From positions 17,068-81,067 of the IMG/VR virus record IMGVR_UViG_3300044910_000908: a stretch of 64,000 nucleotides of DNA. One strand, 5' to 3'. Each line of letters begins with the position of its first letter. Within the stretch, counting starts at the first letter, position 1. Positions 3,031-60,533 of this stretch are shown in pieces. This stretch comes from a virus. The notes beneath the pieces were generated by a model that worked only from the letters and a program-made list of their open reading frames with translations, searched no databases and had not been told where the DNA came from. Both the position numbers and the translations under genes were made by a program.

Positions 3031-3049
3031 TTTATATTTCCTCTGTTTA

Positions 3050-3553
3050 TTAATTATCTAATATTGTATCACTGCTATGTTTACAACCTTCATAATAACC
3101 ATTGCAATAATTTTCTCGTTGTATATCTTTTATTAATTGTTTTAATTCTTTTACACAATCAGTTGAATTACTAATTTTAACATTATTATCATATAAAAAT
3201 TGAATAATTTCTGCATGTGTAACAACTTTATATTCTGGTTGCGTCAATATTAAAGAAAAATCACATCCTTGCCCACCCAATCCAGCGTATTCAATCGTTA
3301 CTTCATTATCAAATATATTAAGAATATCACTGAAGAATTGATTTGCATTTTGTTCATCTAAACAACATTTTTGAACAGCAATTTCAAATGAAAATCCACT
3401 TTCCATTAAATGTAAAGTATGATAAATGCAACAAAATTTTAAAAATACTGTAGCATCATCCCAAAATTCTTTCCAAGCATCCCAATCTTCTTCTGTAATA
3501 TTAGGGTCAAATGTTAATGAATATTTTAAAGGAGTATTAATTAATAATTTCAT
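3050..3553 (-). CDS. Hypothetical protein
   Basis: 167 aa ORF in the minus-strand gene run. Confidence 0.55.
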   Translation of the reverse strand: MKLLINTPLKYSLTFDPNITEEDWDAWKEFWDDATVFLKFCCIYHTLHLMESGFSFEIAVQKCCLDEQNANQFFSDILNIFDNEVTIEYAGLGGQGCDFSLILTQPEYKVVTHAEIIQFLYDNNVKISNSTDCVKELKQLIKDIQRENYCNGYYEGCKHSSDTILDN

Positions 3554-4935: not shown

Positions 4936-5436
4936 TCACATTTTTGAAGAATGTAAATAATTTAAAATATCAAATTTAATTTTTGTCATTTCCCAATCAC
5001 CTGTATGTAAAATACCATTTCCACCCGCTTTATCCCATTCTTTAATATTCGTTTCTGCATCATCAATTAAAATATCACCTTTTGTATTAATCCAATGCTT
5101 TTTATTTCTTCCGCCTAATACAGTATGAACTTGAATATCAAAAGATAAATTTAATTTAACCCATTCTTTTTTATCATCTACTGCAGATAATAATTGTTGA
5201 GTTGGCAATGGAATAGCTGTTAAAACAAAAATATCATATTCATTTTTAAAAGACCAAATATAATCAAAGAATTCTTTAGCTCCAGGTAATACATCTAAAT
5301 GCAAAAATAAATTAGGAACTAATTCTAAACTACTCCAAGAAGTATGCGGAGAATAAGGTTGTCCAGTATGTTCTTTTACAAATTTATGGAAATCAGCAAA
5401 ACATCCATCAAGATCTAATGCAATTCTTCGTTTCAT
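4936..5436 (-). CDS. 5'(3')-deoxyribonucleotidase, HAD superfamily
   Basis: DLDGCFADF motif I, VLTA, ILIDD motif IV. Confidence 0.8.
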   Translation of the reverse strand: MKRRIALDLDGCFADFHKFVKEHTGQPYSPHTSWSSLELVPNLFLHLDVLPGAKEFFDYIWSFKNEYDIFVLTAIPLPTQQLLSAVDDKKEWVKLNLSFDIQVHTVLGGRNKKHWINTKGDILIDDAETNIKEWDKAGGNGILHTGDWEMTKIKFDILNYLHSSKM

Positions 5437-7274: not shown

Positions 7275-9533
7275 TTAAACTACACAAGCACCTGATTTAC
7301 AACCACCTTCTTCAATATTATCAGAAGAACCATCATTAACTTGATTGTAATACATAGTACACATTCCCATTTTATATGCAAATAATAAATCCTCAATCAA
7401 TCTTGACATTTTAATTTCACCTTTAGAAGGGTCATACGAAGTGTTGCATGAAATAAATTGATCATTATATTTCTGAAATACTGCAGTAGTTTTCAAGTAA
7501 TCTTTACTATCAACATTCCACAATGTTTCATATAAATGATTTAATTTGTTATATTCAGGAACAACTTGTGGTAATACTCCATCTTTAGAACCTTTAATAC
7601 TAATTAAATCTCTAGGAGGTTCAATACCATTTGTCTCATTAGAAATTTGAGATGATGTTTCACTTGGAAAAATTGTTGATAATGTTGCATTTCTAATACC
7701 ATATTTTTTCAAATCTTCTTTTAATTCATCCCATGGCATTAATGGAGCATTAACTGGAATTTTATTTAAATCTCTCGGAACAATACCATCATGATATTTT
7801 GTTCTTAATTCAATAGAACCAAATTCTTTTGCTAATTGATTAGATGCTTGAATTAAATAAAAATTCTGTTTCTCAATCATTGTTTCAGTCGCAAGTAATG
7901 CTTCATCTGTACCCCATTGTAATCTTCCTTTTGCTAACCAATGAGCATAACCAATTAAACCAATGCCTAATGGACGACATAATTTAGTAGCTCTTTCAGC
8001 AGCATCAATTGGATATTCTTGATAATCTAATAAAGCATCTAAAGCTCTAACACCCATTTCACAACAATCTTTTAAAATTCTTTCTTCTTTTTCAGATAAA
8101 TTCTTACTAAATTTACCCCAATTAGTAGCTAATAATGTACATAAATTTAATAATGAATTACCATCTCCAAGCGGAGTTGTTCGCTGTCCAATTTCCGTAC
8201 ATAAATTAGTCATATAAACTGGTTCATAATAAGGTGTTTGATAATTGACATTATCAGCATTAAAAATATAAATACGTCCAGTTTCATATCTTTCATTCAT
8301 TAATTTTGTAAAGTATTCAAATGCAGGAATAGTTTTCTTTACAACTTTATTTGAGTTTTCATATTTTTCATATAATTCTTCAAATTTTTCTAAATCTGGA
8401 GAATAAAAAGCTTCATATAAATCTGGAACTTCTTCAGGGCTAAATAATGTAATATTTCCACCTGTGATTAATCTTTTATACATTGTTCCATTAAGAGCAA
8501 CAACATAATCTAAAGTTCTAATACGAGTTTCTTCAGTTCCTTTATTGTTTTTTAATTCAATTAATTTTTCAAATTCTAAATGCCATCCAGGATAATTAAT
8601 AGAAGCTGAAGCCGACCTAATTCCACCTTGCGATACTGCTCTTAAAGAAGAATTCATTAATTTTAAATAAGGAATAACACCAGTTGTAATAGCATCTCCT
8701 TGTCTAACTTGTTGTCCTTCAGCACGTAATCTTCCAATATTTAAACCAATACCAGCTTTTCTTGAAGCATAATCAATAATAGCTGCTGATGTAGCTTTAA
8801 TAGAATTTAAGCTATCACCACAATCCATTAATGTGCAAGAAGAAAATTGTTTTACATTAGTTCTTAATCCAGCCATAATAGGTGTAGGAAGAGAAATATA
8901 ATGTTGGCTAACCAAATCATAAAATTTCTTGATGTATCCCATACGAGTAGCAATTGGGTACGCGCCAAATAATAATGCTGGAACTAAAATATAAGGGAAT
9001 TGAAATGTTTCATATACATGTTTAGTTTTTCTATTTTGAACTAAATATTTTTTACGCATTTGTTCTGAACCTGCATAACGAAATAAATCATCTCTATTAT
9101 GGTCAATCATATCATTTAAAATATTAAATTCTTCTTCATTATAAAATTCTAATAATTCTTTAGTATAAACACCTAATGCCACATTTTTCTTAACAACATC
9201 ATATAAATGAGGTGGTGTATTAGAACCAAATGCTTCTTTACGAATAGATAACCAATTTAATCTAGCAGCAACATGATCATAATTTGGAGTATCTTCATTA
9301 ATTAAATCTGCAGATGCTTTAATTAAAGTTTGGTGAATTGAAGAAGTTTTAATATTTGGAACGAAATGTGGATTAGCTGTCATTTCAATTTGAGAAACAG
9401 ATACGCCTTTAATTGGTGGAAAAATATCATCTCCATTACATGCCCAATTAATCACTTGATGAATTTTAGAAAGATCTAATAGTTCTTTTGTTCCATTTCG
9501 TTTAGTAACAAATATATTACTGGTTTGAGTCAT
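7275..9533 (-). CDS. nrdA: Ribonucleotide reductase class Ia alpha subunit
   Basis: ATP cone VTKRNG, PTPIMAG, QFSSC, TNLCTEI, PSETSS, C-terminal CKSGAC; uninterrupted. Confidence 0.97.
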   Translation of the reverse strand: MTQTSNIFVTKRNGTKELLDLSKIHQVINWACNGDDIFPPIKGVSVSQIEMTANPHFVPNIKTSSIHQTLIKASADLINEDTPNYDHVAARLNWLSIRKEAFGSNTPPHLYDVVKKNVALGVYTKELLEFYNEEEFNILNDMIDHNRDDLFRYAGSEQMRKKYLVQNRKTKHVYETFQFPYILVPALLFGAYPIATRMGYIKKFYDLVSQHYISLPTPIMAGLRTNVKQFSSCTLMDCGDSLNSIKATSAAIIDYASRKAGIGLNIGRLRAEGQQVRQGDAITTGVIPYLKLMNSSLRAVSQGGIRSASASINYPGWHLEFEKLIELKNNKGTEETRIRTLDYVVALNGTMYKRLITGGNITLFSPEEVPDLYEAFYSPDLEKFEELYEKYENSNKVVKKTIPAFEYFTKLMNERYETGRIYIFNADNVNYQTPYYEPVYMTNLCTEIGQRTTPLGDGNSLLNLCTLLATNWGKFSKNLSEKEERILKDCCEMGVRALDALLDYQEYPIDAAERATKLCRPLGIGLIGYAHWLAKGRLQWGTDEALLATETMIEKQNFYLIQASNQLAKEFGSIELRTKYHDGIVPRDLNKIPVNAPLMPWDELKEDLKKYGIRNATLSTIFPSETSSQISNETNGIEPPRDLISIKGSKDGVLPQVVPEYNKLNHLYETLWNVDSKDYLKTTAVFQKYNDQFISCNTSYDPSKGEIKMSRLIEDLLFAYKMGMCTMYYNQVNDGSSDNIEEGGCKSGACVV

Positions 9534-26199: not shown

Positions 26200-27297
26200 T
26201 TAACCTCTTGTATTATTAATAATTCTAATACTATCTACTTCTGAATATCTAATACTTTGGGTAGAATAGTATTGATTAGTTACTACTTCTAGAGACATAG
26301 TTTTATCTTCACGTTGATGGATACGTTGTTCAAGCAAATATAATGGAGACATAAATTCAAATCCAATAATGTAATAATTATGTTGTCTCAAAATAGTAAC
26401 CCATTGTCTTCTAGATTTTGGGCTTAGATTTGTATTGTCAATAATAATATTTTTATTTTGTTTAATAAATTCATTGAATTTTTTTCTAGTATATTCATTG
26501 AATTTTTCTGCATGTTCATTACAATAATTCCAAGCTTGTTTATATAGTTCTTTTATATTTGTTGTATGTTCTGGAAATATGTTAGAATAATATTCAATTC
26601 TATAATTATCAAAACTAAAGATAACAGTATTAGCATCTTGCATTAATTTTTCAGAAACTGTGCTTTTTCCAGAACCAGAAGGACCAACCAAAATATAAGC
26701 AGTTAGACCTGAATTATGTTTTTGATCTTGTTCTTGGAGATATAGAGTTTCATTAACCCAATTAGTAACAAATGGAATTTTACTATCTTCAGTAATTCTC
26801 CCACCAGCATCTGATAATAGAACATCAGCAAACATTTGAAGATTTCCAGTCAATGCTCTTGTACTATCAATTCTAAAATCATTATAACATTTTCTACCAT
26901 AAGGCAAATGATTTTCAATCATCCATCTTACTTGACGAATTTGCAAATCAGTTAAACCAAAATTGTTATTAGATAATACATAATCTTCAAATATTCTAGC
27001 AGATACTAGTTCATGTCCAGCATATGATTTATGCTGACCACGTTTTTCTGTAAATTTTTCTACTTCACATTTTGGTTTACCAACATCATGAAATAGAAGA
27101 GCCAATTGAGAAAGTAGTCTTTCATTTTCACTTCTATTTAGAAAGAAGTGTTCTTTATAAAAACGAAGTGTCATTTGTGTATGGACGGCAGTATTTTCTT
27201 CTCTATGATAAGGAGAATTTTCCTGAGTCATGAGCATGTGATGCCAGTATGATGTTTTAGTAAAGTTATGATAGATGTCTTCAAATTGTGTAGTCAT
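26200..27297 (-). CDS. HD-domain phosphoesterase fused to polynucleotide kinase (HD-Pnk RNA end-healing enzyme)
   Basis: YHRE..VHT, FHDVGKP, GHE in the N-half; GPSGSGKS and IIIDNTN in the C-half. Confidence 0.85.
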   Translation of the reverse strand: MTTQFEDIYHNFTKTSYWHHMLMTQENSPYHREENTAVHTQMTLRFYKEHFFLNRSENERLLSQLALLFHDVGKPKCEVEKFTEKRGQHKSYAGHELVSARIFEDYVLSNNNFGLTDLQIRQVRWMIENHLPYGRKCYNDFRIDSTRALTGNLQMFADVLLSDAGGRITEDSKIPFVTNWVNETLYLQEQDQKHNSGLTAYILVGPSGSGKSTVSEKLMQDANTVIFSFDNYRIEYYSNIFPEHTTNIKELYKQAWNYCNEHAEKFNEYTRKKFNEFIKQNKNIIIDNTNLSPKSRRQWVTILRQHNYYIIGFEFMSPLYLLEQRIHQREDKTMSLEVVTNQYYSTQSIRYSEVDSIRIINNTRG

Positions 27298-36248: not shown

Positions 36249-37058
36249 TTAAATTTTTTCAATTTTTTCAATAGATTGTGGTCTTATATTGGTTAGTGTA
36301 TATATTCCATTATCATAATTAGGGTCTCTAAAGAACCTCTGAACTTGTGGTAAATCTTTTACTGAAATTGTAATTAAGAACCACTCAACTTCTTTCCCTG
36401 TCCTAATGTCAATATCTTGTTTATTTTTATTTGCTGCATATTTTAATTGTTTAATTAAAATATTTCTAACAACTTCTTCTGAAATAGCTAAATATATACG
36501 TTCAGGATGATTTGCTAATTTAGAATGTGTTTTAGGAACTAATCCAATTGTTCTAATTTTTTCAATATATTTGGAATTAGTAATATGATATAAAAATTCA
36601 GGAGCAAATTTCATATCTAATTCTATATCATATTTTGCTTCAAGATTGATCTCAATGTACTTAACTTTATCAAATTCTTTCAATGAATTCAATATTTTTT
36701 CAACAGAAATTGTTTTTCCTAATTGAAAAATTTCTCTTTTATTTTTATCATAAGCTTCATATAAAGAAATAAACCAACCATAATAGTTAGCTAATTTAAA
36801 AATTCCAGAAATTAAATCTTCATCTATCTTATTACTTTCGCATATAATACAAATTGTATTAGCTTCTCCAAATTTAGAATATTGCTTTTTGAATTTAAGA
36901 AAATCCCATTTTCGTAATAATCCAGAAATTGTAGAACTAATTGGATATGTTCTTATTAAACTTTCATTTAATAAAAGCTCCTCCTTATAAAATTCTTTAA
37001 ATTTTTTAAAGTGTTTAATACCTTCATCTTCATTAATAGTTATAGTTGGCCATTCCAT
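36249..37058 (-). CDS. ADP-ribosyltransferase-fold protein (Tpt1/KptA-like C-domain)
   Basis: LYHIT, IRTIGLVPK, RIYLA, IRPQSI. Confidence 0.6.
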   Translation of the reverse strand: MEWPTITINEDEGIKHFKKFKEFYKEELLLNESLIRTYPISSTISGLLRKWDFLKFKKQYSKFGEANTICIICESNKIDEDLISGIFKLANYYGWFISLYEAYDKNKREIFQLGKTISVEKILNSLKEFDKVKYIEINLEAKYDIELDMKFAPEFLYHITNSKYIEKIRTIGLVPKTHSKLANHPERIYLAISEEVVRNILIKQLKYAANKNKQDIDIRTGKEVEWFLITISVKDLPQVQRFFRDPNYDNGIYTLTNIRPQSIEKIEKI

Positions 37059-48998: not shown

Positions 48999-49439
48999 TT
49001 ATTTAGCTTCTGCTCTCGCATAAAGCATTTTTGGTGCTTTTTCAAAATACAAAAATAAAGCAGGACATAACCATCCAGGAATATTAGGCAATTCAATATT
49101 TGGATGGTTCCAAACATACCAATTACCAACAATATCTCCTAAATACATTTTTCCTTCTTTAACCCATTTTCCTTCTAATTGATAACCTTCAAAAGGTTTA
49201 TCACTAAAAATTAATTTAAAACCTTTATCAGCATCTTTAATTGGTTGAGTAATATAATCAGTCACTAAATCAGTTCCAGATACTAATGCTTCATACTTCA
49301 AACCTACTCGTTCATCGTCAAATACCCAAACATCTTGTCCTTCTATCTGATTTCCTTCACCATCATCCATAACATAAGCTGTTCCAGATAATCGATAAGG
49401 ATAAATTTCTAACATCTTTGTTTTCTTTCTTCCAAACAT
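48999..49439 (-). CDS. Conserved hypothetical protein (DUF6717-like)
   Basis: WVFDDERVGL, GWLCPALFLYF. Confidence 0.6.
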   Translation of the reverse strand: MFGRKKTKMLEIYPYRLSGTAYVMDDGEGNQIEGQDVWVFDDERVGLKYEALVSGTDLVTDYITQPIKDADKGFKLIFSDKPFEGYQLEGKWVKEGKMYLGDIVGNWYVWNHPNIELPNIPGWLCPALFLYFEKAPKMLYARAEAK

Positions 49440-49455
49440 ATAATGACTCTATTAT

Positions 49456-49559
49456 TGGAGCTCGAGAGAGGATTTGAACCTCCGACCGGCTGATTGTTCA
49501 ATACTCTCTTTAGAAAGCATTCAACAAATCAGCTGCTCTACCAACTGAGCTACTCGAGC
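49456..49559 (-). tRNA. tRNA-Thr(UGU) interrupted by a 28-nt insert after the anticodon
   Basis: GCTCGAG/CTCGAGC acceptor, D arm GCTC-AGTTGGTA-GAGC, GCTGA/TCAGC anticodon stem, T loop TTCAAAT, encoded CCA; removing 49496-49523 gives a canonical 76-nt tRNA. Confidence 0.9.
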
Positions 49560-50292
49560 AATATTTTTTATTTATAATATTTTAAAAGTAATGTAATAAC
49601 CATTAACTTTCATTTACTCCACGTTTAGTTAATTCTTTTTTAATCAACGCGTTTCTTTTCTTTTTATTGCCGTAAGCTGCTTGCAATTTATCAATTTTCA
49701 TTGTTGCTAATACTTGACCATGTTTTGAAACTTTTGCTGACATTAACTTCTCCTCTTTGTTGTAATAAAATATTTCTTAATATTCTTTATATAGCAGAAA
49801 ACATTAAGAAATATTCTACATATTTCCTGTTGAAGTGTTTAACTTTTCTTTTATAAGAAGTTTTATCTTCTTCAACTTTTGGTTTATTAAATTGATGACA
49901 ATGTTTTGCCACAAAATTATTTATTATTGGTTTGTTTTTCTTTTTCATATTTAATTTCTCCTATTATAACAATCTGATTGCCAATGACCATTATTATTTA
50001 TATGACATATTTTTTCACTTGACATATTAGGTAATTTTACATCCATAACATAACCAAGTGATACTATCAATATCAATAATGTAAGTAGTATTAATTTTAT
50101 TGTAAATTTATCCATCTTTGCATTCTCTTTGCCAAACAACGTGATTACTATTATTTCCTTTAACATATACAACACACTGTTGTAATCCTGCTTTTGCCAT
50201 TTGTTCATTTTCTGTTTTGCTTATATTGTCTGATATAAGCAAATAAATTAGAAAGAAAATTATACAAAAAATTAAATAATTATTTTTATCCA

Positions 50293-50727
50293 TTAAACAA
50301 TTCTCGCTTCTTCAAATTTAACTAATAATTTGCCAATACTATCATTATTCTGTTTAACTAAATAATATCCATAATAATAATCGCATATACCATCAATAAT
50401 TCCTTTATCTAATTGTGTTCCTATTTCATAGGGTGGTTCAACATTATTTTCTTCAAACCATTTTTTTCGTTCTTTTTGTAAATAATCATTAGCTATATAA
50501 TCTAAATCATCCAATGCGTTTACAAATTGTAAATCTACATCCCAACCATAATGGGTATCTAAATATTTCCCAATTTCATATCCATCGGATATTGAAGAAT
50601 ATCGATAACCATCTATCAGTATAGATAAATCGCATCCATGCTCTTTTGAAAAAGGTTCAAATGCTTTTTGTAGTAATTCAATTGTTTCTGTTGGTGCTTT
50701 AGGATATTTATCCATTGGATGTGTCAT
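50293..50727 (-). CDS. Hypothetical protein
   Basis: 144 aa ORF. Confidence 0.55.
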   Translation of the reverse strand: MTHPMDKYPKAPTETIELLQKAFEPFSKEHGCDLSILIDGYRYSSISDGYEIGKYLDTHYGWDVDLQFVNALDDLDYIANDYLQKERKKWFEENNVEPPYEIGTQLDKGIIDGICDYYYGYYLVKQNNDSIGKLLVKFEEARIV

Positions 50728-50938
50728 ATTTATTTCCTCGTTTTAACTTTAAATAAGGTTGGACCTTCAATTAATACTTTTTCACATTTAAAATTTATCT
50801 GACTTGACGATAAATTAGTAAATACAACTTTTTCGTCTGATAAACATTTACTTTGGCTAATTGTAATTTCTTCTTCTGTTGGTTTTCTTTCAACAGAGGA
50901 ACATCCAACAACTAATAAAATTAATATTAAATATCTCA

Positions 50939-51448
50939 TTATAAATATTTTTTAATAAATTCAAATTTTACTTCATTGCTATTAACATCAATATAAGAAC
51001 AATTAAATTTATTTAAAATACTTTTAATTTCTTCAGATAATTCTTGTGATTGAGCTTCATCTTGATTTCTACCAATTTGCTGATATTCATGTGTTCTATG
51101 TAAAAAGAAATTAATGTTCTCATAAGAATTAAAAATTTCAGAAGTTAATTCAGCAAGTAAAGGATAATAAGATAATTCCTTTGATTGATAAGCAATATTC
51201 ATAATTAAAGGACTATCAGTAATTACATAATCCACCTTACCTTGCAATCTTAATAATCTTCTATGTTGCTTAGCAAAAATATATAACTGGTCAGAAAATA
51301 AATTCTGACGTTCTTCCCATACTGCATCCTTAGCATATTCAGTAATCTCCTCTACATTATATCCTGCTATTTTCATATCAGCAAAAATGCGAGCTCTTAA
51401 AGTTGATTTACCACTACCAGGAGCCCCGATTAGATTAATGATTTTCAT
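50939..51448 (-). CDS. P-loop nucleotide kinase (NadR/Ttd14 AAA-like)
   Basis: INLIGAPGSGKST, EYAK, VITDSPL, GRNQ. Confidence 0.75.
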   Translation of the reverse strand: MKIINLIGAPGSGKSTLRARIFADMKIAGYNVEEITEYAKDAVWEERQNLFSDQLYIFAKQHRRLLRLQGKVDYVITDSPLIMNIAYQSKELSYYPLLAELTSEIFNSYENINFFLHRTHEYQQIGRNQDEAQSQELSEEIKSILNKFNCSYIDVNSNEVKFEFIKKYL

Positions 51449-52873
51449 ATACTACCCTAATATGCTTGTTAAAATATTTTCAGGAATACTGCTGTCATCA
51501 ACAGAACAAACTCCTTCATAATTAAAATGAACTGGAGTATTATCATTGTAATAATATTCTCCGCCTTTCCATCCTTCAAAGTGATGATTAACAGCATCTT
51601 TAAGATAATCTAACATTTGTTGGATAGTAATATCATTTTCATTTGGTGGAAAACTTACATGATCATAATATCCTCTATGAGCATGTGGATAACCAAATCC
51701 AAAAGCACAAACTTTATCTTTTGGCTGAGTTTCTAAAAGCATTCTTAATTCTTTTATAGTCATTTAATCATCCTCTCCTCTATCCCAATTCAAATTAAGT
51801 GCCTCTTGATAACCATCCATAAATATTCCATTTCTCCATTCATCAAATTGGGCAAAATCGATTTTGCGCTGTTTAACTAATTCAAACACCGTTTCAGGAG
51901 TCATTTGTTTAATTTCAAAATCATAAAATGAACCATCTGATAATGTTATTTGTATACAACTCATTTCTATATCCTCTTATTAATCTATGAGTATATAATA
52001 TACCAAAACTATTAAAAAGTAAATATTTAAATTTGATATTTGAATTTACTTAACAATTTATTTGCTTCTTCTTTATTATTTTCCAATACTGCTTTTAGAT
52101 CTTGCTCATGTTTTGCTTCTAAAATATTTAATTGTTCTTTAAGCTTTAATCCAGCTTCTTCAGGAATAATGAATTGAGGTCTAAATAACGCATTTCCATA
52201 ACTTCCGATTTTTACTAAACCATCATCTCTCACTTCATCAATAACACCGCATAATAAATATGGAAATCTATCATACTTCCAAAATGCCATTAAATTTTTA
52301 TCCATTAGATTTTACCTCTTCAAAATAAAAATGCAACGTTTGTTCTTTAGAAATTTGTTTATAACATCTTGCAATGTCACAACGAAAACTATCCATTCTG
52401 AATAAACATAATTGACATTTTTCATTTAAAGTAGATGAAACCATTTTTACTAATGGTCCACCACCTACGTAGTGTGCTTCACCAATTTTGAAACCATTAA
52501 CTGTTATATCTTCTGACATGTTATATTCTCTTCATCTGTTTGTGTAAATAAAAAAGCTTCTGATTTACTATCATTATACATCACAATCTCGTAAAAGTAA
52601 ATATCTTTTTTATTTAAAACACCTCTAAAAGACTTATCAATATTCAGCATTTGCGGTAAATTTGCAACTTGATTAAAGAATTTTACAACTCTATCTCTAT
52701 AAGTTTCTGAACTATCTTGAGCTAATTTGATTGTTACTCTGGTGGGAGTAATAGTCAATTTAAATCGACTATTACCTTTATCTTGAATTTCTAATGTTTT
52801 CATCTTTTTATATACTCTTTTTTCATCGAATTTGAAATATTATACACTAAATCCCAAAAAAGTAAAACTATTT

Positions 52874-54064
52874 TTAATAAAATCTCAAAATTGTTTTATA
52901 GGTATTGGCTAATGGAGCAGGCATAGTCATTAAAACTTTATTAACCGTTTCTACTTTTACATTATTATCCTGTAAATATTGTAGAACTTGTTCATATTGA
53001 ATTAATGGATAATTTTCATCAGTTGTAGTTTCAGGGTAAAATGAATGAAAATTTAATATTAACCATTCATTATTGGCTATGGCATTGTCAATCCACTTCT
53101 CAATCAACCCTACTGGTGTCCATTTATCAACACTAATTCTATTGATATTGGTTCTATCCACTATTGGTAAAATATTATTCATTCCATCAATATTTAACAT
53201 TGCTAAATAATTACTTTTTACAACATTAGCAACTCTATCATTATGAATACCATTAGGATAAGCGAATACTGAATTCCCCTTAGTATTGTTAGATGTTAAG
53301 TAATTTTTAGTAGTGGAAATAATAGAACTTAATTTAGTAGCTGATACAGTTTTAAGATTGTATTTTACTGAATGTCCGCCAATTTCCCAATTTGAACTAT
53401 TAATCTGATTGAATTCTGTAGTTGATATAAATGGAGATGTATTAAAAACATTCTCATCAATATAAATACTTGTGTCAATATTATAACTTTGAGATAATTG
53501 TAAAGCATCCATTATTGTTTCATTGCCATCATCTATAGTTATTGAAACAATTGGATTAGTTCCTGTGCTAGGAATAATTTCTAAATTTGAAATTTGTGCT
53601 GAAATTCTGGATCCGCCTCTATCTCGCAATCTCCACATAAATGAATTAATTTGAGATGCATTAGGAGAACCGTATTTGTATAATTCACTAAAAGGAATAA
53701 CCACATTTATCCATTGATTATTAGTAGGAGATTGAATATGCCAACTTAAATCAATTTCATATGTATTATTAAAATCAGTTCCAGAACTTGAAAACATTAA
53801 AGAAAATTCATCTAATTGGGACCAATCAGAAACTTTAATTCTTGCTCTAATACCTGATTTTTCGATAGAAATAGGAGTATCATAATAAGAAAAAACTCCA
53901 GAATATTCCATCCATCCTGTAGTGTTTAAAGAAATAATATTAGAAGTTGTATTAACTGAATACGACGTGTAATCATAATATTGATATAATTCCTGTTTTA
54001 CAATTTTACTATATGTTAATGTTGGCAATAACATTAACATAATAAATACTATTTTTTTAATCAT
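52874..54064 (-). CDS. Secreted polysaccharide deacetylase (CE4/NodB) with N-terminal beta domain
   Basis: Signal peptide; SITIDDG, EIGGHS, FAYPNG, LNFH. Confidence 0.85.
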   Translation of the reverse strand: MIKKIVFIMLMLLPTLTYSKIVKQELYQYYDYTSYSVNTTSNIISLNTTGWMEYSGVFSYYDTPISIEKSGIRARIKVSDWSQLDEFSLMFSSSGTDFNNTYEIDLSWHIQSPTNNQWINVVIPFSELYKYGSPNASQINSFMWRLRDRGGSRISAQISNLEIIPSTGTNPIVSITIDDGNETIMDALQLSQSYNIDTSIYIDENVFNTSPFISTTEFNQINSSNWEIGGHSVKYNLKTVSATKLSSIISTTKNYLTSNNTKGNSVFAYPNGIHNDRVANVVKSNYLAMLNIDGMNNILPIVDRTNINRISVDKWTPVGLIEKWIDNAIANNEWLILNFHSFYPETTTDENYPLIQYEQVLQYLQDNNVKVETVNKVLMTMPAPLANTYKTILRFY

Positions 54065-54165
54065 ATATTCTAATCTCCTTTATTAATATCTCGTAAAATT
54101 AATCTTCTAAATTTCTTATCAACATCATGAGACCAAACTCTATGATTTAAAATAAGAATGCTCTG

Positions 54166-54271
54166 CTGACACGGAGGGACTCGAACCCCCAACCCTCTGA
54201 TTAAGTGAAGAACTCTCTATCCATGAAAGTTCTTGGGTCAGTCAGATGCACTGCCATTGTGCTACATGTCA
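54166..54271 (-). tRNA. tRNA, most likely Asn(GUU) (alternative Lys-CUU), interrupted by a 34-nt insert; no encoded CCA
   Basis: TGACATG/CGTGTCA acceptor (U1-A72, G73), GCAC/GTGC D stem, TCTGA/TCAGA anticodon stem, T loop TTCGAGT; removing 54205-54238 gives loop CU-GUU-AA. Confidence 0.85.
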
Positions 54272-55258
54272 GCAGAGCATTCTTTATATACTTTTATTTA
54301 TTAAAAATCCGGGGACTCCAGTTTGAGCATTGTTAAGAGGCTTGAAGTCCAATTGTTATTTTATTTATTCAATAAAATTAATCTTAAAACAAACTCTGCC
54401 TTTAAATGATTTCCACCAAGTAATAACAAAACTATCAGCTTTTTCAATTTGCTCTTTTTCAGATTAAGCTCTATGCTTAAACTTATCAACAAAAATGTCA
54501 ATACCTTTAAGAAATAAAAATACACTGAAAAGACCAATATATGTTCCTATACATATCAACCCTAGACCCAAACTAGTAACTTCTGGCCATATTTGTTCTG
54601 GATGATACCCACCTATTACTATAATTCCAAGACAAATGATGGGCCAAATTAACAAACAAAATACGAATACAGATAAAAGTGATAGTTTAAAAGCTCCAAC
54701 GAAAACTTGTCTAACATATTTACAAAAATTTTCACTAGGATAGACATGATCAAAACTAGCTAATTTATAATGTAAGGAAGATTTTTTAAAATTTAAAGTT
54801 TTCATTTTATATTACTCATTTTGTAAAAGGTTTTTTCAGTTATTGTAAAACTGCCATTCGTCAATAACTTTTTTTGCATTCCATATTTTTTCATCAACTC
54901 ATAAACATTTATTGTTGTATCAGTTTCTGCTTGATTGCCAAATTCTTTTAACTTAAACCAACTAATATGAACAACTTTCCAAGCATAATAGAAAAAATGA
55001 TTAATATAAATTATATCCTTTTCTCTTTCAGTCAACTCCAAATCTTCTAATAAAGATTGATATTGAATATCAACTTCACCATAAGGGAATCCAACTGAAT
55101 CAGAATTATTCATTATATAATAACTTCTAGCAACTGAAATAATTTTTGATAATTTTGTTTCTTCAGTAGCAGCAATTTTAAAAGCAGTCTCAACGTTCAT
55201 CACTTATCTCCAATTTGTTAAGATAAATTATATAATACTTCTCGTTAAAAGTAAACAA

Positions 55259-59894: not shown

Positions 59895-60533
59895 TCAATT
59901 GTCATTTTTTAACCTATTAGGTATTATTGGTTTATTCATCCAATGATCGTCTGTGACAACGTGGTTCTTTCTAACATATTTGGCAACACTATGTTTAAAT
60001 GCTGATATATGAAAAATATCTTTTAATCTAATTACAAATCCTTCTTGTTTTTCAAAATTCATTGTATTAATTAATTCATTTATAATATCTTCATTATACA
60101 TTCCATCATATAATACTGGAACTGTTGTTAATCCTAAGTTTCTACATTCTTCAACAGTATCATCCCAATGACAACATAAATCATTAGAATACGTTGAAAA
60201 TACTTCAAAATAAGAAGTTAAATTATCGTAAGGAATACTGTGTTGAGCATAAAGATTTTCACCACAAAATCTTAAACTTTCATGAACTTGATATGCAATT
60301 AAAGGAACAACATTGCCTTTAATCCAATTTCGAGAAGGATGATTATTACTATCAATAGAACGAGCGTGAAGATAACCATCAGCATAAATCGTGGTATTTT
60401 CGCCATCTCGTTTTTCAGAAATGATAATATGTTTATTTTTAAAATGGTCCATATTCCTCAGAACTTTATCATCTGATGTAGCACCAGGTGATTGAGGAAT
60501 ATGGAATGTTCTTTGATATTTAATTCTGTCCAT
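59895..60533 (-). CDS. ATP-dependent RNA ligase (Rnl2-like nucleotidyltransferase domain)
   Basis: EKRDGEN motif I, GEN, FEVF, EGFV, AKYVR. Confidence 0.85.
   Translation of the reverse strand: MDRIKYQRTFHIPQSPGATSDDKVLRNMDHFKNKHIIISEKRDGENTTIYADGYLHARSIDSNNHPSRNWIKGNVVPLIAYQVHESLRFCGENLYAQHSIPYDNLTSYFEVFSTYSNDLCCHWDDTVEECRNLGLTTVPVLYDGMYNEDIINELINTMNFEKQEGFVIRLKDIFHISAFKHSVAKYVRKNHVVTDDHWMNKPIIPNRLKNDN

What the first reader, a model, noticed from the sequence alone, without database searches (positions are those of the whole stretch)
49456..54271. Two different tRNAs share one mini-intron architecture: a possible phage tRNA-splicing system
Seen: both inserts contain the stem CUUUC-(4 or 7 nt loop)-GAGAGU, both end in AC, and in both the inferred 3' junction lies exactly 8 nt after GAGAG (UAUUGAAC; UUCUUCAC), although the host tRNAs and insertion positions differ. 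The window also encodes HD-Pnk (26200), an RNA ligase (59895), a Tpt1/ART-fold protein (36249) and a macrodomain (18727). Known: fungal-type tRNA splicing uses end healing, ligation, Tpt1 and Appr-1''-p turnover. Inference: a common nuclease recognises the stem and measures to the cut, and phage enzymes reseal the exons; masking the anticodon could protect precursors from host anticodon nucleases or time their release. Caveats: these repair genes are common in large phages without introns, only two examples support the motif, and no endonuclease was identified.
Basis: partly seen in the sequence, partly recalled or inferred. Interest (0 to 1): 0.86.

Follow-up and report, generated by a model that had tools for sequence, protein, structure and literature searches.

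The report
RNase III-shaped mini-introns in phage tRNAs
Two tRNA genes of this lake phage are split inside the anticodon by small hairpins that recur in other phages and look like the cut-out product of the bacterial enzyme RNase III, which suggests an untested cut-and-rejoin way of making tRNA.

Summary
tRNA-Thr(UGU) (49456-49559, minus) carries a 28-nt hairpin between nt 36|37. tRNA-Asn(GUU) (54166-54271, minus) carries a 34-nt hairpin between nt 34|35. Both share CUUUC-loop-GAGAGU, with the 3' junction 8 nt after GAGAG.

The design recurs: 14 genes at 11 loci in the window, Aeromonas phages (Aeh1, Ah1, PX29, AsFcp4) and uncultured phages, in tRNAs Thr, Asn, Trp, Arg, Lys and Leu. Phage phiAS5 has the same tRNA-Arg locus without the insert, which fixes the junctions.

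In 11 of 14 genes the cuts are staggered by 2 nt (3' overhang) around a 10-11-bp hairpin. The hairpin carries an invariant U.G wobble beside a U-A pair, and only A/U pairs at the third pair from the cut. These match the published rules for a minimal E. coli RNase III site.

My reading, unproven, is that host RNase III excises the hairpin and a phage RNA ligase reseals the anticodon loop. The fungal-type Pnk/Tpt1/macro route is not supported.

The window's Asn intron has 3 extra 5' nucleotides that this model does not remove.

No RNA evidence of splicing was obtained.

The scan reached the same reading on other DNA (e1-5831446, e1-5831797, e1-5831810).

The parts
49456..49559 (-). tRNA-Thr(UGU) gene with encoded CCA. 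5' exon 49524-49559 (nt 1-36), intron 49496-49523, 3' exon 49456-49495.
   Evidence: Rfam 59.5 bits. ARAGORN -i finds a 28-nt intron. BLAST to annotated phage tRNA-Thr genes covers query nt 1-36 or 8-36.
49496..49523 (-). 28-nt hairpin mini-intron between nt 36|37. It has 6 nt, CUUUC, a UAAA loop, GAGAG, then 8 nt. Its last two nt (AC) pair with G35 and U36.
   Evidence: The fold of the anticodon arm is one continuous helix of -21.4 kcal/mol, z = -7.0. It scores 58.7 bits with model R1, of whose ten training rows it is one, so the score is partly by construction. Covariation is shown in alignment A1.
54166..54271 (-). tRNA-Asn(GUU) gene, no encoded CCA. 5' exon 54239-54271, intron 54205-54238, 3' exon 54166-54204.
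   Evidence: Rfam 54.2 bits. ARAGORN -i calls Asn(GUU) with a 34-nt intron. U1-A72 and G73 are shared with 6 of 6 intron-less tRNA-Asn genes of relatives, and the spliced arm TCTGACTGTTAATCAGA is identical to G003's. Ortholog L272 shows compensatory stem changes.
54205..54238 (-). 34-nt variant intron between nt 34|35. It has the same hairpin and the same 3' distance (8 nt after GAGAG), but 9 nt precede CUUUC (3 extra: ACC), there is a 3x3 internal loop, and the loop is 7 nt.
   Evidence: Fold -15.9 kcal/mol, z = -2.95. R1 gives only 15.4 bits. It is 31 of 34 identical in L272.
54272..54278 (-). Leader GCUCUGC, which pairs with G73 plus the trailer (54160-54166) and lengthens the acceptor helix to 14 bp.
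   Evidence: Read from the sequence. L272 has UUUUC/GAAAA at the same places.
59895..60533 (-). RNA ligase of the Rnl2/PF09414 type (212 aa), a candidate sealing enzyme. It is context only and is not shown to act on these tRNAs.
   Evidence: Pfam E = 7.3e-24; found again.
26200..27297 (-). HD domain plus P-loop polynucleotide-kinase-like protein. It is context only and is not needed if the ends are 5'-P and 3'-OH.
   Evidence: Pfam AAA_33 E = 4.7e-19, HD E = 0.0012. NCBIfam gives a partial Pnkp hit.

Best explanation
The two inserts belong to a family of 26-34-nt hairpin mini-introns that split the anticodon of phage tRNAs. In the precursor, the anticodon stem continues through the anticodon into a helix of about 20 bp capped by the intron hairpin. 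The hairpin is built like a minimal bacterial RNase III site. It has 10-11 bp between the cut and the loop, a U.G wobble next to a U-A pair near the top, and only A/U pairs at the third pair from the cut. The two junctions are offset by 2 nt, giving a 3' overhang. The most likely course is as follows. The host's RNase III cuts both strands and releases the hairpin. The two tRNA halves, still held together by the tRNA body, are left with 3'-OH and 5'-phosphate ends in a 7-nt anticodon loop. A phage RNA ligase (Rnl1 type or Rnl2 type) seals that nick. Shown here: the inserts, their recurrence in several tRNAs and phages, an empty-site ortholog, covariation of the helix, and the match to published RNase III determinants. 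Inferred: the cleavage, the enzyme, the end chemistry and the ligation. Not explained: the window's tRNA-Asn intron and one other have 3-4 extra nucleotides at their 5' end, which a plain staggered cut would leave on the 5' exon.
For: Recurrence. A motif-plus-T-loop pattern scan of IMG/VR gave 48 loci, 7 of them tRNAs with the insert. RF00005 and the covariance model R1 added more. The total is 14 genes at 11 loci, in tRNA Thr, Asn, Trp, Arg, Lys and Leu.

Empty site. phiAS5 has an intron-less tRNA-Arg(UCU) with loop CTTCTAA at the locus where 6 other Aeromonas phages in the same alignment carry a 26-28-nt hairpin exactly between nt 36|37.

Junction rule. Removing the insert by the junction rule (11 genes) or at the junctions the tRNA's identity requires (the 3 34-nt genes) restores a 7-nt loop with A37 in 14 of 14, and U33 in 13 of 14.

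Helix. In alignment A1 (10 genes) both cuts fall in the same columns. Pairing is 89.4% against 68.9% in shuffles (0 of 500 reach it). 14 of 20 pairs show changes on both sides. Slid controls give 44-54%. The two exon-intron pairs change with the anticodon. All 12 folded arms give one continuous hairpin, z from -2.95 to -7.97.

RNase III match. Passages of PMC1540722 and PMC3867540 give these rules: 11 bp from the cleavage site to the tetraloop is the minimum; the distal box is UA plus UG, with a stringent UG; proximal-box position 2 must be AU or UA; the loop sequence is irrelevant; products are 11-15 bp. The 2-nt 3' overhang of bacterial RNase III is established knowledge; the passages I read state it for Drosha and Dicer. 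In A1, pair 9 from the cut is U.G in 10 of 10, pair 10 is U-A in 9 of 10, pair 7 is C-G in 9 of 10, and pair 3 is A-U or U-A in 10 of 10. The U.G is also present in the other 4 genes.

Enzymes. No RNase III (PF14622, PF00636) or EndA (PF01974) gene was found in 5 intron-bearing records, 2 of them complete. This leaves a host enzyme. Rnl1-type and PF09414 ligases are in the complete intron-bearing phages G002 and Aeh1, and PF09414 is in the window.

Phage restriction. A strict pattern scan of 185,579 cellular genomes gave 17 hits. Only 1 was an intron tRNA, on a 2.2-kb contig holding 4 tRNAs that looks like phage DNA.
Against: There is no RNA evidence. Contigs of 3 metatranscriptome runs and 1 DNA run showed no joint that skips either insert, and one RNA-library contig carries the Thr gene unspliced. 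Contigs cannot show rare or modified tRNAs.

3 of 14 genes do not fit the 2-nt stagger on the 5' side: window Asn, its ortholog L272, and G010 Leu.

The pair next to the 5' cut is C-G in 3 of 10 genes. In E. coli this lowers cleavage 7-14-fold.

The helix below the cut is only about 9 bp and has a bulged nt 32.

The exact base-pair numbers of the distal box are in a figure I could not see. Placing it at pairs 9-10 rests on my recall of the substrate, so the match may be off by one pair.

The hosts of the uncultured phages are unknown.

The ligases are equally present in the intron-free relatives G001 and G003, so they are no specific support.

G008's Arg-like gene would have C33 after excision.
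Confidence: 0.55

Rival explanations
1. [quoted passage not shown] The phage HD-Pnk heals them and the RNA ligase seals them. Tpt1 and the macrodomain remove a junction 2'-phosphate and its product.
For: The HD/P-loop kinase and a PF09414 ligase are in the window. The 8-nt rule on the 3' side also holds in the three 34-nt introns, where the RNase III stagger fails on the 5' side. This leaves room for a nuclease with its own rules. The window holds many ORFs of unknown function.
Against: There is no nuclease candidate. The ten ORFs scanned around the two tRNAs gave no nuclease domain. The Tpt1 assignment rests on a 38-residue NCBIfam stretch (19.7 bits against a cut-off of 239) and a structural TM of 0.42. 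The macro domain is below its Pfam cut-off. By established knowledge, T4-type Rnl1 and Rnl2 ligases make ordinary 3'-5' bonds without a 2'-phosphate, so Tpt1 has no role with them. The staggered cuts and the conserved pairs are those of RNase III. The complete relatives G001 and G003 carry the ligases but no such intron.
Confidence: 0.2
2. The inserts are not spliced. These are tRNA-shaped RNAs with a long closed anticodon arm that act as decoys or regulators, or RNase III simply cuts them into halves as a way of switching them off.
For: No spliced form was seen, and one RNA-library contig carries the Thr gene unspliced. The scan has noted other anticodon-less tRNA-shaped phage RNAs (unchecked notes).
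Against: Excision at the rule-based or identity-required junctions restores a normal 7-nt loop whose anticodon fits the tRNA's other identity marks. These marks are Thr by BLAST, Arg by the phiAS5 ortholog, Asn by U1-A72 and G73, and Leu by its long variable arm. The tRNA stems evolve by compensatory changes, as in window Asn against L272 and in the Aeromonas Arg genes. In Aeh1 the intron gene is the only candidate for tRNA-Arg(UCU): the published tRNA table lists 'Glu UUC' and no Arg UCU.
Confidence: 0.12
3. The hairpin is first of all a selfish or protective DNA element, such as a small palindromic insert that spreads between tRNA genes or shields the site from a homing endonuclease. Its removal from the RNA is only what makes it tolerable.
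For: Its presence is patchy: 9 of 36 records, then 0 of 23 further relatives, with and without the insert at one locus. The introns of window tRNA-Thr and G008 tRNA-Lys are 23 of 28 identical although the tRNAs are unrelated. Aeh1 and Ah1 share the anticodon arm plus intron while the rest of the tRNA differs. L423 has an intron-bearing and an intron-less tRNA-Arg(UCU) side by side.
Against: No endonuclease or transposase gene lies beside the window's two tRNAs. The invariant U.G wobble and the covariation are constraints at the RNA level. This reading concerns origin and is compatible with the RNase III and ligase route.
Confidence: 0.08

Closest known systems
Minimal E. coli RNase III processing signal (phage T7 R1.1 and its 34-nt derivative; Pertzev and Nicholson 2006, PMC1540722; review PMC3867540)
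   Same: A hairpin with about 11 bp between the cut and a 4-nt loop of free sequence. A UA plus UG box near the top with a strict U.G wobble. Only A/U pairs at proximal-box position 2. Cuts on both strands offset by 2 nt. A released hairpin of 26-29 nt.
   Different: Here the signal sits inside a tRNA anticodon, so the flanking pieces must be rejoined. Known RNase III sites separate RNAs and are not religated. No cleavage has been shown. 3 of 14 members carry 3-4 extra 5' nucleotides.
T4 tRNA repair: anticodon-loop breaks healed by Pnkp and sealed by RNA ligase 1 (established knowledge, recalled; review listed)
   Same: The proposed last step is the same reaction: sealing a nick with 3'-OH and 5'-phosphate ends in a tRNA anticodon loop by a phage ligase. 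Rnl1-type genes are present in G002 and Aeh1.
   Different: In T4 the break is damage inflicted by a host anticodon nuclease and needs end healing. Here it would be a programmed step of maturation with ends that need no healing.
'Enigmatic' tRNA introns of Lak megaphages (Devoto et al. 2019, PMC6784885; passages read, supplement closed)
   Same: They are introns in phage tRNAs, conserved in sequence, present or absent between related genomes, and of unknown splicing route. One lies in tRNA-Thr(UGU).
   Different: The main text describes an insert that may itself encode a tRNA. It mentions no short RNase III-like hairpin and no mechanism. Their intron sequences are in a supplement I could not open.
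Archaeal and eukaryal tRNA introns cut by the EndA/Sen endonuclease at a bulge-helix-bulge
   Same: Short introns without catalytic RNA in the anticodon loop, removed by a protein nuclease plus a ligase.
   Different: There is no bulge-helix-bulge. The positions are 34|35 to 36|37 rather than 37|38. No EndA gene was found in 5 intron-bearing phage records. The expected end chemistry differs.
Group I introns in bacterial and phage tRNA anticodon loops
   Same: An interrupted anticodon loop in a bacterial-type tRNA.
   Different: At 26-34 nt the inserts are far too small for a group I catalytic core. Rfam finds only the tRNA.

Membership tests
RNase III processing signal (T7 R1.1 type) | [quoted passage not shown] | tested here: met
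   There are 10-11 intron-intron pairs in 11 of 11 canonical members. The rule comes from PMC1540722.
RNase III processing signal (T7 R1.1 type) | Cuts on both strands offset by 2 nt, giving a 3' overhang | tested here: inconclusive
   The inferred junctions give this offset in 11 of 14 genes. Window Asn, L272 Asn and G010 Leu do not. The junctions are inferred from tRNA logic and one empty site, not from mapped RNA ends.
RNase III processing signal (T7 R1.1 type) | Distal box of UA plus UG with a strict U.G wobble | tested here: met
   U.G in 10 of 10 and U-A in 9 of 10 at adjacent pairs. The U.G is also in the other 4 genes. The exact pair number in the published substrate was not visible to me, so the register may be off by one.
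RNase III processing signal (T7 R1.1 type) | Proximal box: AU or UA at position 2, and no GC or CG next to the scissile bond | tested here: inconclusive
   Position 2 is A/U only in 10 of 10. The pair next to the cut is C-G in 3 of 10 and unpaired in 2 of 10.
RNase III processing signal (T7 R1.1 type) | Cleavage by RNase III | not testable with these tools
   This needs an enzyme assay or an rnc mutant host.
Bulge-helix-bulge tRNA intron (EndA/Sen) | Two 3-nt bulges separated by a 4-bp helix at the splice sites | tested here: not met
   All 12 folded arms are continuous helices with at most single mismatches or a symmetric internal loop.
Bulge-helix-bulge tRNA intron (EndA/Sen) | A splicing endonuclease of the EndA family is available | tested here: not met
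   PF01974 is found in 0 of 5 intron-bearing phage records, while the control rings in 4 archaea. That bacteria lack EndA is established knowledge.
Group I self-splicing intron | A catalytic core (P3-P9) of roughly 200 nt or more | tested here: not met
   The inserts are 26-34 nt, and Rfam matches only RF00005.
Fungal-type tRNA splicing (Trl1 healing and sealing, plus Tpt1) | A Tpt1/KptA 2'-phosphotransferase is present | tested here: inconclusive
   36249-37058 has no Pfam hit. NCBIfam gives 19.7 bits against a cut-off of 239 over 38 residues. The Atlas structure search gives TM 0.42 to a Tpt1 cluster, and other leads point to Arr/DarT.
Lak megaphage tRNA introns | Sequence or structure of the published introns | not testable with these tools
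   The sequences are in Supplementary Table 6 of PMC6784885, and supplements are closed. Only main-text passages were read.

The most novel reading that the evidence does not exclude
This is a third route of tRNA splicing. Phage tRNA genes carry mobile, R1.1-like RNase III signals inside the anticodon. The host's own RNase III excises them and a phage RNA ligase reseals the anticodon loop. These tRNAs therefore become functional only in cells where the phage ligase is made, which would explain why the design is found in phages and hardly ever in cellular genomes. The 34-nt variant in the window's tRNA-Asn would need one further, still unknown trimming or cutting step.
Probability: 0.45. Interest if true: 0.9.

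Novelty: new variant of a known kind. Interest (0 to 1): 0.8.

Why it matters
tRNA introns removed by proteins are textbook features of archaea and eukaryotes. In bacteria and their viruses only self-splicing introns are established, and the tRNA introns of Lak megaphages were left as 'enigmatic'. If this reading holds, two long-known activities form a splicing pathway: RNase III processing and the phage RNA ligases, whose known natural role is tRNA repair. That would give those ligases a housekeeping role.

It would also correct annotations. Aeh1's 'tRNA-Glu' and PX29's 'tRNA-Lys' are tRNA-Arg(UCU).

The question is directly testable, because cultured Aeromonas phages (Aeh1, Ah1, PX29) carry the intron and phiAS5 lacks it.

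Tried and rejected
The first pattern scan, which tied the motif to a TCAG stem, gave 49 IMG/VR loci and none was in a tRNA.

The flanking proteins 52874-54064 and 48999-49439 had no relatives in IMG/VR. DNA of 49000-55000 had no match among 50,697 phage records.

Of 119 loci, 1 was a true member, L272.

RNA evidence: 4 runs were laid (3 metatranscriptome contig sets and 1 DNA set). No joint skips either insert. The joints listed between the two genes are other organisms' tRNAs. Contigs only, so there is no verdict.

Gene 57B, next to the Aeh1 intron tRNA, is labelled 'RNA ligase' in RefSeq but matches Acb1 (PF23474, E = 9.8e-36). I dropped it as a lead.

Weak R1 hits outside tRNAs are ordinary hairpins.

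A second alignment of the hairpin alone (A3) was misaligned in the stem, so I did not build a model from it.

BLAST of the Asn gene gave only chance-level matches. The S-CAM9 tRNA-Arg hit is 74 nt with no insert.

Bulge-helix-bulge and group I readings were rejected (see the membership tests). I considered an RNase P/Z minihelix mimic and dropped it, because the loops are not T-loop-like and the overhang is 2 nt.

Paper searches for a prior description found only Devoto 2019. What I saw of each paper:
- Passages: PMC1524935, PMC3014915, PMC6784885, PMC3867540 and PMC1540722.
- Search listing only: all others.
- Supplements were closed. Table S6 of PMC6784885 may hold similar introns.

Full report
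THE OBSERVATION

The window is part of an 81-kb fragment (about 23% complete) of an AT-rich (28% G+C), T4-like large phage from lake water. Default ARAGORN sees two tRNAs, Gly and Leu. Rfam's tRNA model also scores 49459-49559 and 54166-54271 (minus strand) as full-length tRNAs, at 59.5 and 54.2 bits. With introns allowed, ARAGORN reports inserts of 28 and 34 nt in their anticodon loops. CTTTC-N4-7-GAGAGT occurs only at these two places in the window, against 0.04 expected by chance.

WHICH tRNAs AND WHERE THE JUNCTIONS ARE

ARAGORN's intron placement is arbitrary: it called the first gene Val-AAC.

- The first gene's nt 1-36 or 8-36 match many annotated phage tRNA-Thr genes, and the matches stop at nt 36. 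Removing 28 nt gives the loop UUUGUAA, so the gene is Thr(UGU) with the insert at 36|37.
- The second gene has U1-A72 and G73, like 6 of 6 intron-less tRNA-Asn genes of related phages. Its arm without the 34 nt (TCTGACTGTTAATCAGA) is identical to that of a G003 tRNA-Asn. The gene is Asn(GUU) with the insert at 34|35.
- A metagenome ortholog, L272, keeps the 34-nt insert (31 of 34 identical) while its acceptor and anticodon stems changed by compensatory pairs. The gene is therefore under selection as a tRNA.

RECURRENCE

Relatives found through the UvsW helicase include three complete phages of 343-368 kb with 53-55 tRNAs each. One of them, G002, has a tRNA-Trp(CCA) with a 29-nt insert holding CTTTC-CTAAA-GAGAGT.

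A scan of IMG/VR for the motif followed by a T-loop gave 48 loci, 7 of them tRNAs with the insert. tRNA searches and a covariance model of the arm (R1) added more.

The total is 14 genes at 11 loci, tabulated:
- window Thr and Asn;
- L272 Asn;
- G002 Trp;
- tRNA-Arg(UCU) of Aeromonas phages Aeh1, Ah1, PX29 and AsFcp4;
- G008 Asn, Lys, Leu and an Arg-like gene;
- G010 Thr and Leu.

A further copy of the Trp intron (G030), of the Asn intron (G009), the same intron in avDM12-TAAL and AsFcp_2, and tRNA-Arg in L423 are not counted in these 14.

The design is patchy. R1 hit 9 of 36 records, and not the complete relatives G001 and G003. It hit 0 tRNAs in 23 further UvsW-related records, though most of those are fragments.

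A strict pattern over 185,579 cellular genomes gave 17 hits. One was real, on a 2.2-kb contig with four tRNAs from a Lake Erken bin, which looks like phage DNA.

EMPTY SITE AND COVARIATION

In Aeromonas phages the gene lies after gene 57B. phiAS5 has an ordinary tRNA-Arg(UCU) with loop CTTCTAA there. Six relatives have 26-28 extra nt exactly between nt 36 and 37.

GenBank calls the Aeh1 gene tRNA-Glu(UUC) and the PX29 gene tRNA-Lys in two pieces. The 2006 genome paper lists 'Glu UUC' and no Arg UCU for Aeh1, and its text mentions no tRNA intron (passages).

In a MAFFT alignment of ten arms, both junctions fall in the same columns. On that alignment:
- pairing is 89.4% against 68.9% in shuffles (0 of 500 reach it), and 44-54% when the partner is slid;
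- 14 of 20 pairs show changes on both sides;
- the two pairs between the last two exon nucleotides and the last two intron nucleotides change with the anticodon.

All 12 arms that I folded give one continuous hairpin of about 20 bp.

GEOMETRY AND THE RNase III MATCH

In 11 of 14 genes the 5' junction is 6 nt before the CUUUC-equivalent and the 3' junction is 8 nt after the GAGAG-equivalent. This gives a hairpin of 10-11 pairs with a 2-nt 3' overhang, and the same overhang on the tRNA side.

Passages of the RNase III literature state the following:
- E. coli RNase III yields 11-15-bp products.
- The idealized substrate is 22 bp.
- The loop sequence does not matter.
- The distal box is a UA and a UG pair, with a stringent need for the UG. 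UG to GU costs 50-fold and UG to AU more than 30-fold.
- Proximal-box position 2 must be AU or UA.
- A GC or CG pair next to the scissile bond lowers cleavage.

That bacterial RNase III leaves 2-nt 3' overhangs is established knowledge; the passages I read state it only for Drosha and Dicer.

In the alignment:
- pair 9 from the cut is U.G in 10 of 10, and also in the other four genes;
- pair 10 is U-A in 9 of 10;
- pair 7 is C-G in 9 of 10;
- pair 3 is A-U or U-A in 10 of 10.

Against the match, the pair next to the cut is C-G in 3 of 10. The exact pair numbers of the published distal box are in a figure I could not see. I place it at pairs 9-10 from recall, which agrees with the numbered middle-box pairs given in the text, but it may be off by one.

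ENZYMES

None of five intron-bearing records, two of them complete, encodes an RNase III domain or an EndA-type splicing endonuclease, while the controls ring. The nuclease would therefore be the host's, or an unrecognised phage protein.

Rnl1-type ligase genes are in G001, G002, G003 and Aeh1. PF09414 ligases are in all five records searched, including the window's 59895-60533. The ligases are available, but they do not distinguish intron-bearing from intron-free phages.

By established knowledge, RNase III leaves 5'-phosphate and 3'-OH ends, and T4 Rnl1 seals exactly such nicks in anticodon loops.

THE WINDOW'S ASN INTRON

Three genes (window Asn, L272 Asn and G010 Leu) have 34-nt inserts at 34|35. 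They keep the hairpin, the U.G wobble and the 8-nt 3' distance. They differ in having 9-10 nt before CUUUC and an internal loop below the hairpin.

They read as a canonical hairpin plus 3-4 extra nucleotides at the intron's 5' end: ACC in the two Asn genes and UUCA in G010 Leu. A plain staggered cut would leave these on the 5' exon. Either they bulge out at the cleavage site, or they are trimmed, or another activity makes the 5' cut. I could not decide between these. It is the main gap in the model for this window.

The HD/P-loop kinase and the ligase are real. The macro domain is below threshold. With RNase III ends, none of the healing or 2'-phosphate steps is needed. The idea of a nuclease that measures from the stem is right in spirit and extends to both junctions.

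RNA EVIDENCE

Twenty public runs hold the stretch, four of them lake metatranscriptomes. Contigs of three RNA runs and one DNA run show no joint across either insert, and one RNA-library contig carries the Thr gene unspliced. These are contigs, DNA can be present in such libraries, and mature tRNAs are poorly captured. This gives no verdict.

PRIOR WORK

Searches of the paper library found one report of phage tRNA introns. Lak megaphages carry 'enigmatic' introns 'not reported previously', with no mechanism (passages; supplement closed). I found no description of RNase III-like hairpin introns.

Within this scan, other agents reached the same reading on other phage DNA (e1-5831446, e1-5831797, e1-5831810). 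I saw these notes after forming my reading. They are not independent evidence.

VERDICT

It is a real, recurrent class of tRNA mini-intron in T4-like and jumbo phages.
- That the inserts are excised and the exons rejoined is likely (about 0.8).
- That RNase III makes the cuts and a phage ligase does the sealing is the best-supported mechanism (about 0.55).
- All of this is inferred from sequence.

Noticed in passing
Loci of relatives: G001 357151-357277 and 309621-309743; G002 109626-109748 and 107788-107910; G006 (Aeh1) 96387-96505; G007 (Ah1) 84975-85093 and 85245-85361; G010 195734-195886; G003 86793-86904: Other, longer inserts (about 46-80 nt) sit in tRNA anticodon loops of related phages. 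One 51-54-nt type shares the blocks AAACATCG, GTTGCGCAAGCAAC and ATGGTTATC across three tRNAs of two phages. They are not simple hairpins and may belong to the 'tRNA-shaped intron' class noted elsewhere in this scan.
   Followed up: no
window 54272-54278 with 54160-54166; L272; L166 (Aeh1) around 5020-5160 and 8720-8825: Leader and trailer of the intron-bearing tRNA-Asn pair with each other, extending the acceptor helix to 14 bp. L272 keeps this with different letters (UUUUC/GAAAA). Aeh1's tRNA-Arg (ACACATTG/CAATGTGT) and its long-armed tRNA-Asn (TCATTATT/AATAATGA) have the same feature. The window's tRNA-Gly and tRNA-Leu do not. These may be further double-strand processing sites.
   Followed up: partly
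L166 (NC_005260 Aeh1) 5034-5138; L167 (NC_023688 PX29) 3035-3134: The public records name the intron-bearing gene tRNA-Glu(UUC) in Aeh1 and tRNA-Lys, joined from two pieces, in PX29. By the intron-less phiAS5 ortholog it is tRNA-Arg(UCU).
   Followed up: yes
L164 3852-4346 (Aeh1 gene 57B): RefSeq names gp57B 'RNA ligase'. It matches the anti-CBASS phosphodiesterase family Acb1 (PF23474, E = 9.8e-36) and only faintly the 2'-5' RNA ligase superfamily.
   Followed up: yes
L423 (Lake Erken MAG bin, 2262-nt contig): The contig holds four tRNAs: Leu-UAA, Arg-UCU with a 28-nt hairpin intron, an intron-less Arg-UCU, and Leu-CAA. The content resembles the Aeromonas phage locus, so it is probably phage DNA binned with a bacterium.
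   Followed up: partly
L408 1912-1962 and 2280-2330; L418 40-90 (Colwellia echini): A repeated element carries CTTTC-N5-GAGAGTA and a T-loop-like end and begins like a tRNA, but ARAGORN does not call it a tRNA. There are three copies.
   Followed up: no
L302 1603-1647 (G008 50917-50961): An Arg-like tRNA with a canonical 28-nt hairpin intron would have C at position 33 after excision (loop CCUCUAA), where U is nearly universal. RF00005 did not list it.
   Followed up: partly
window 36249-37058: This 269-aa protein has no family assignment. Its nearest leads are ADP-ribosyltransferase-fold families (Arr, DarT/PARP-like, and Tpt1 at TM 0.42), all below the level of evidence.
   Followed up: partly
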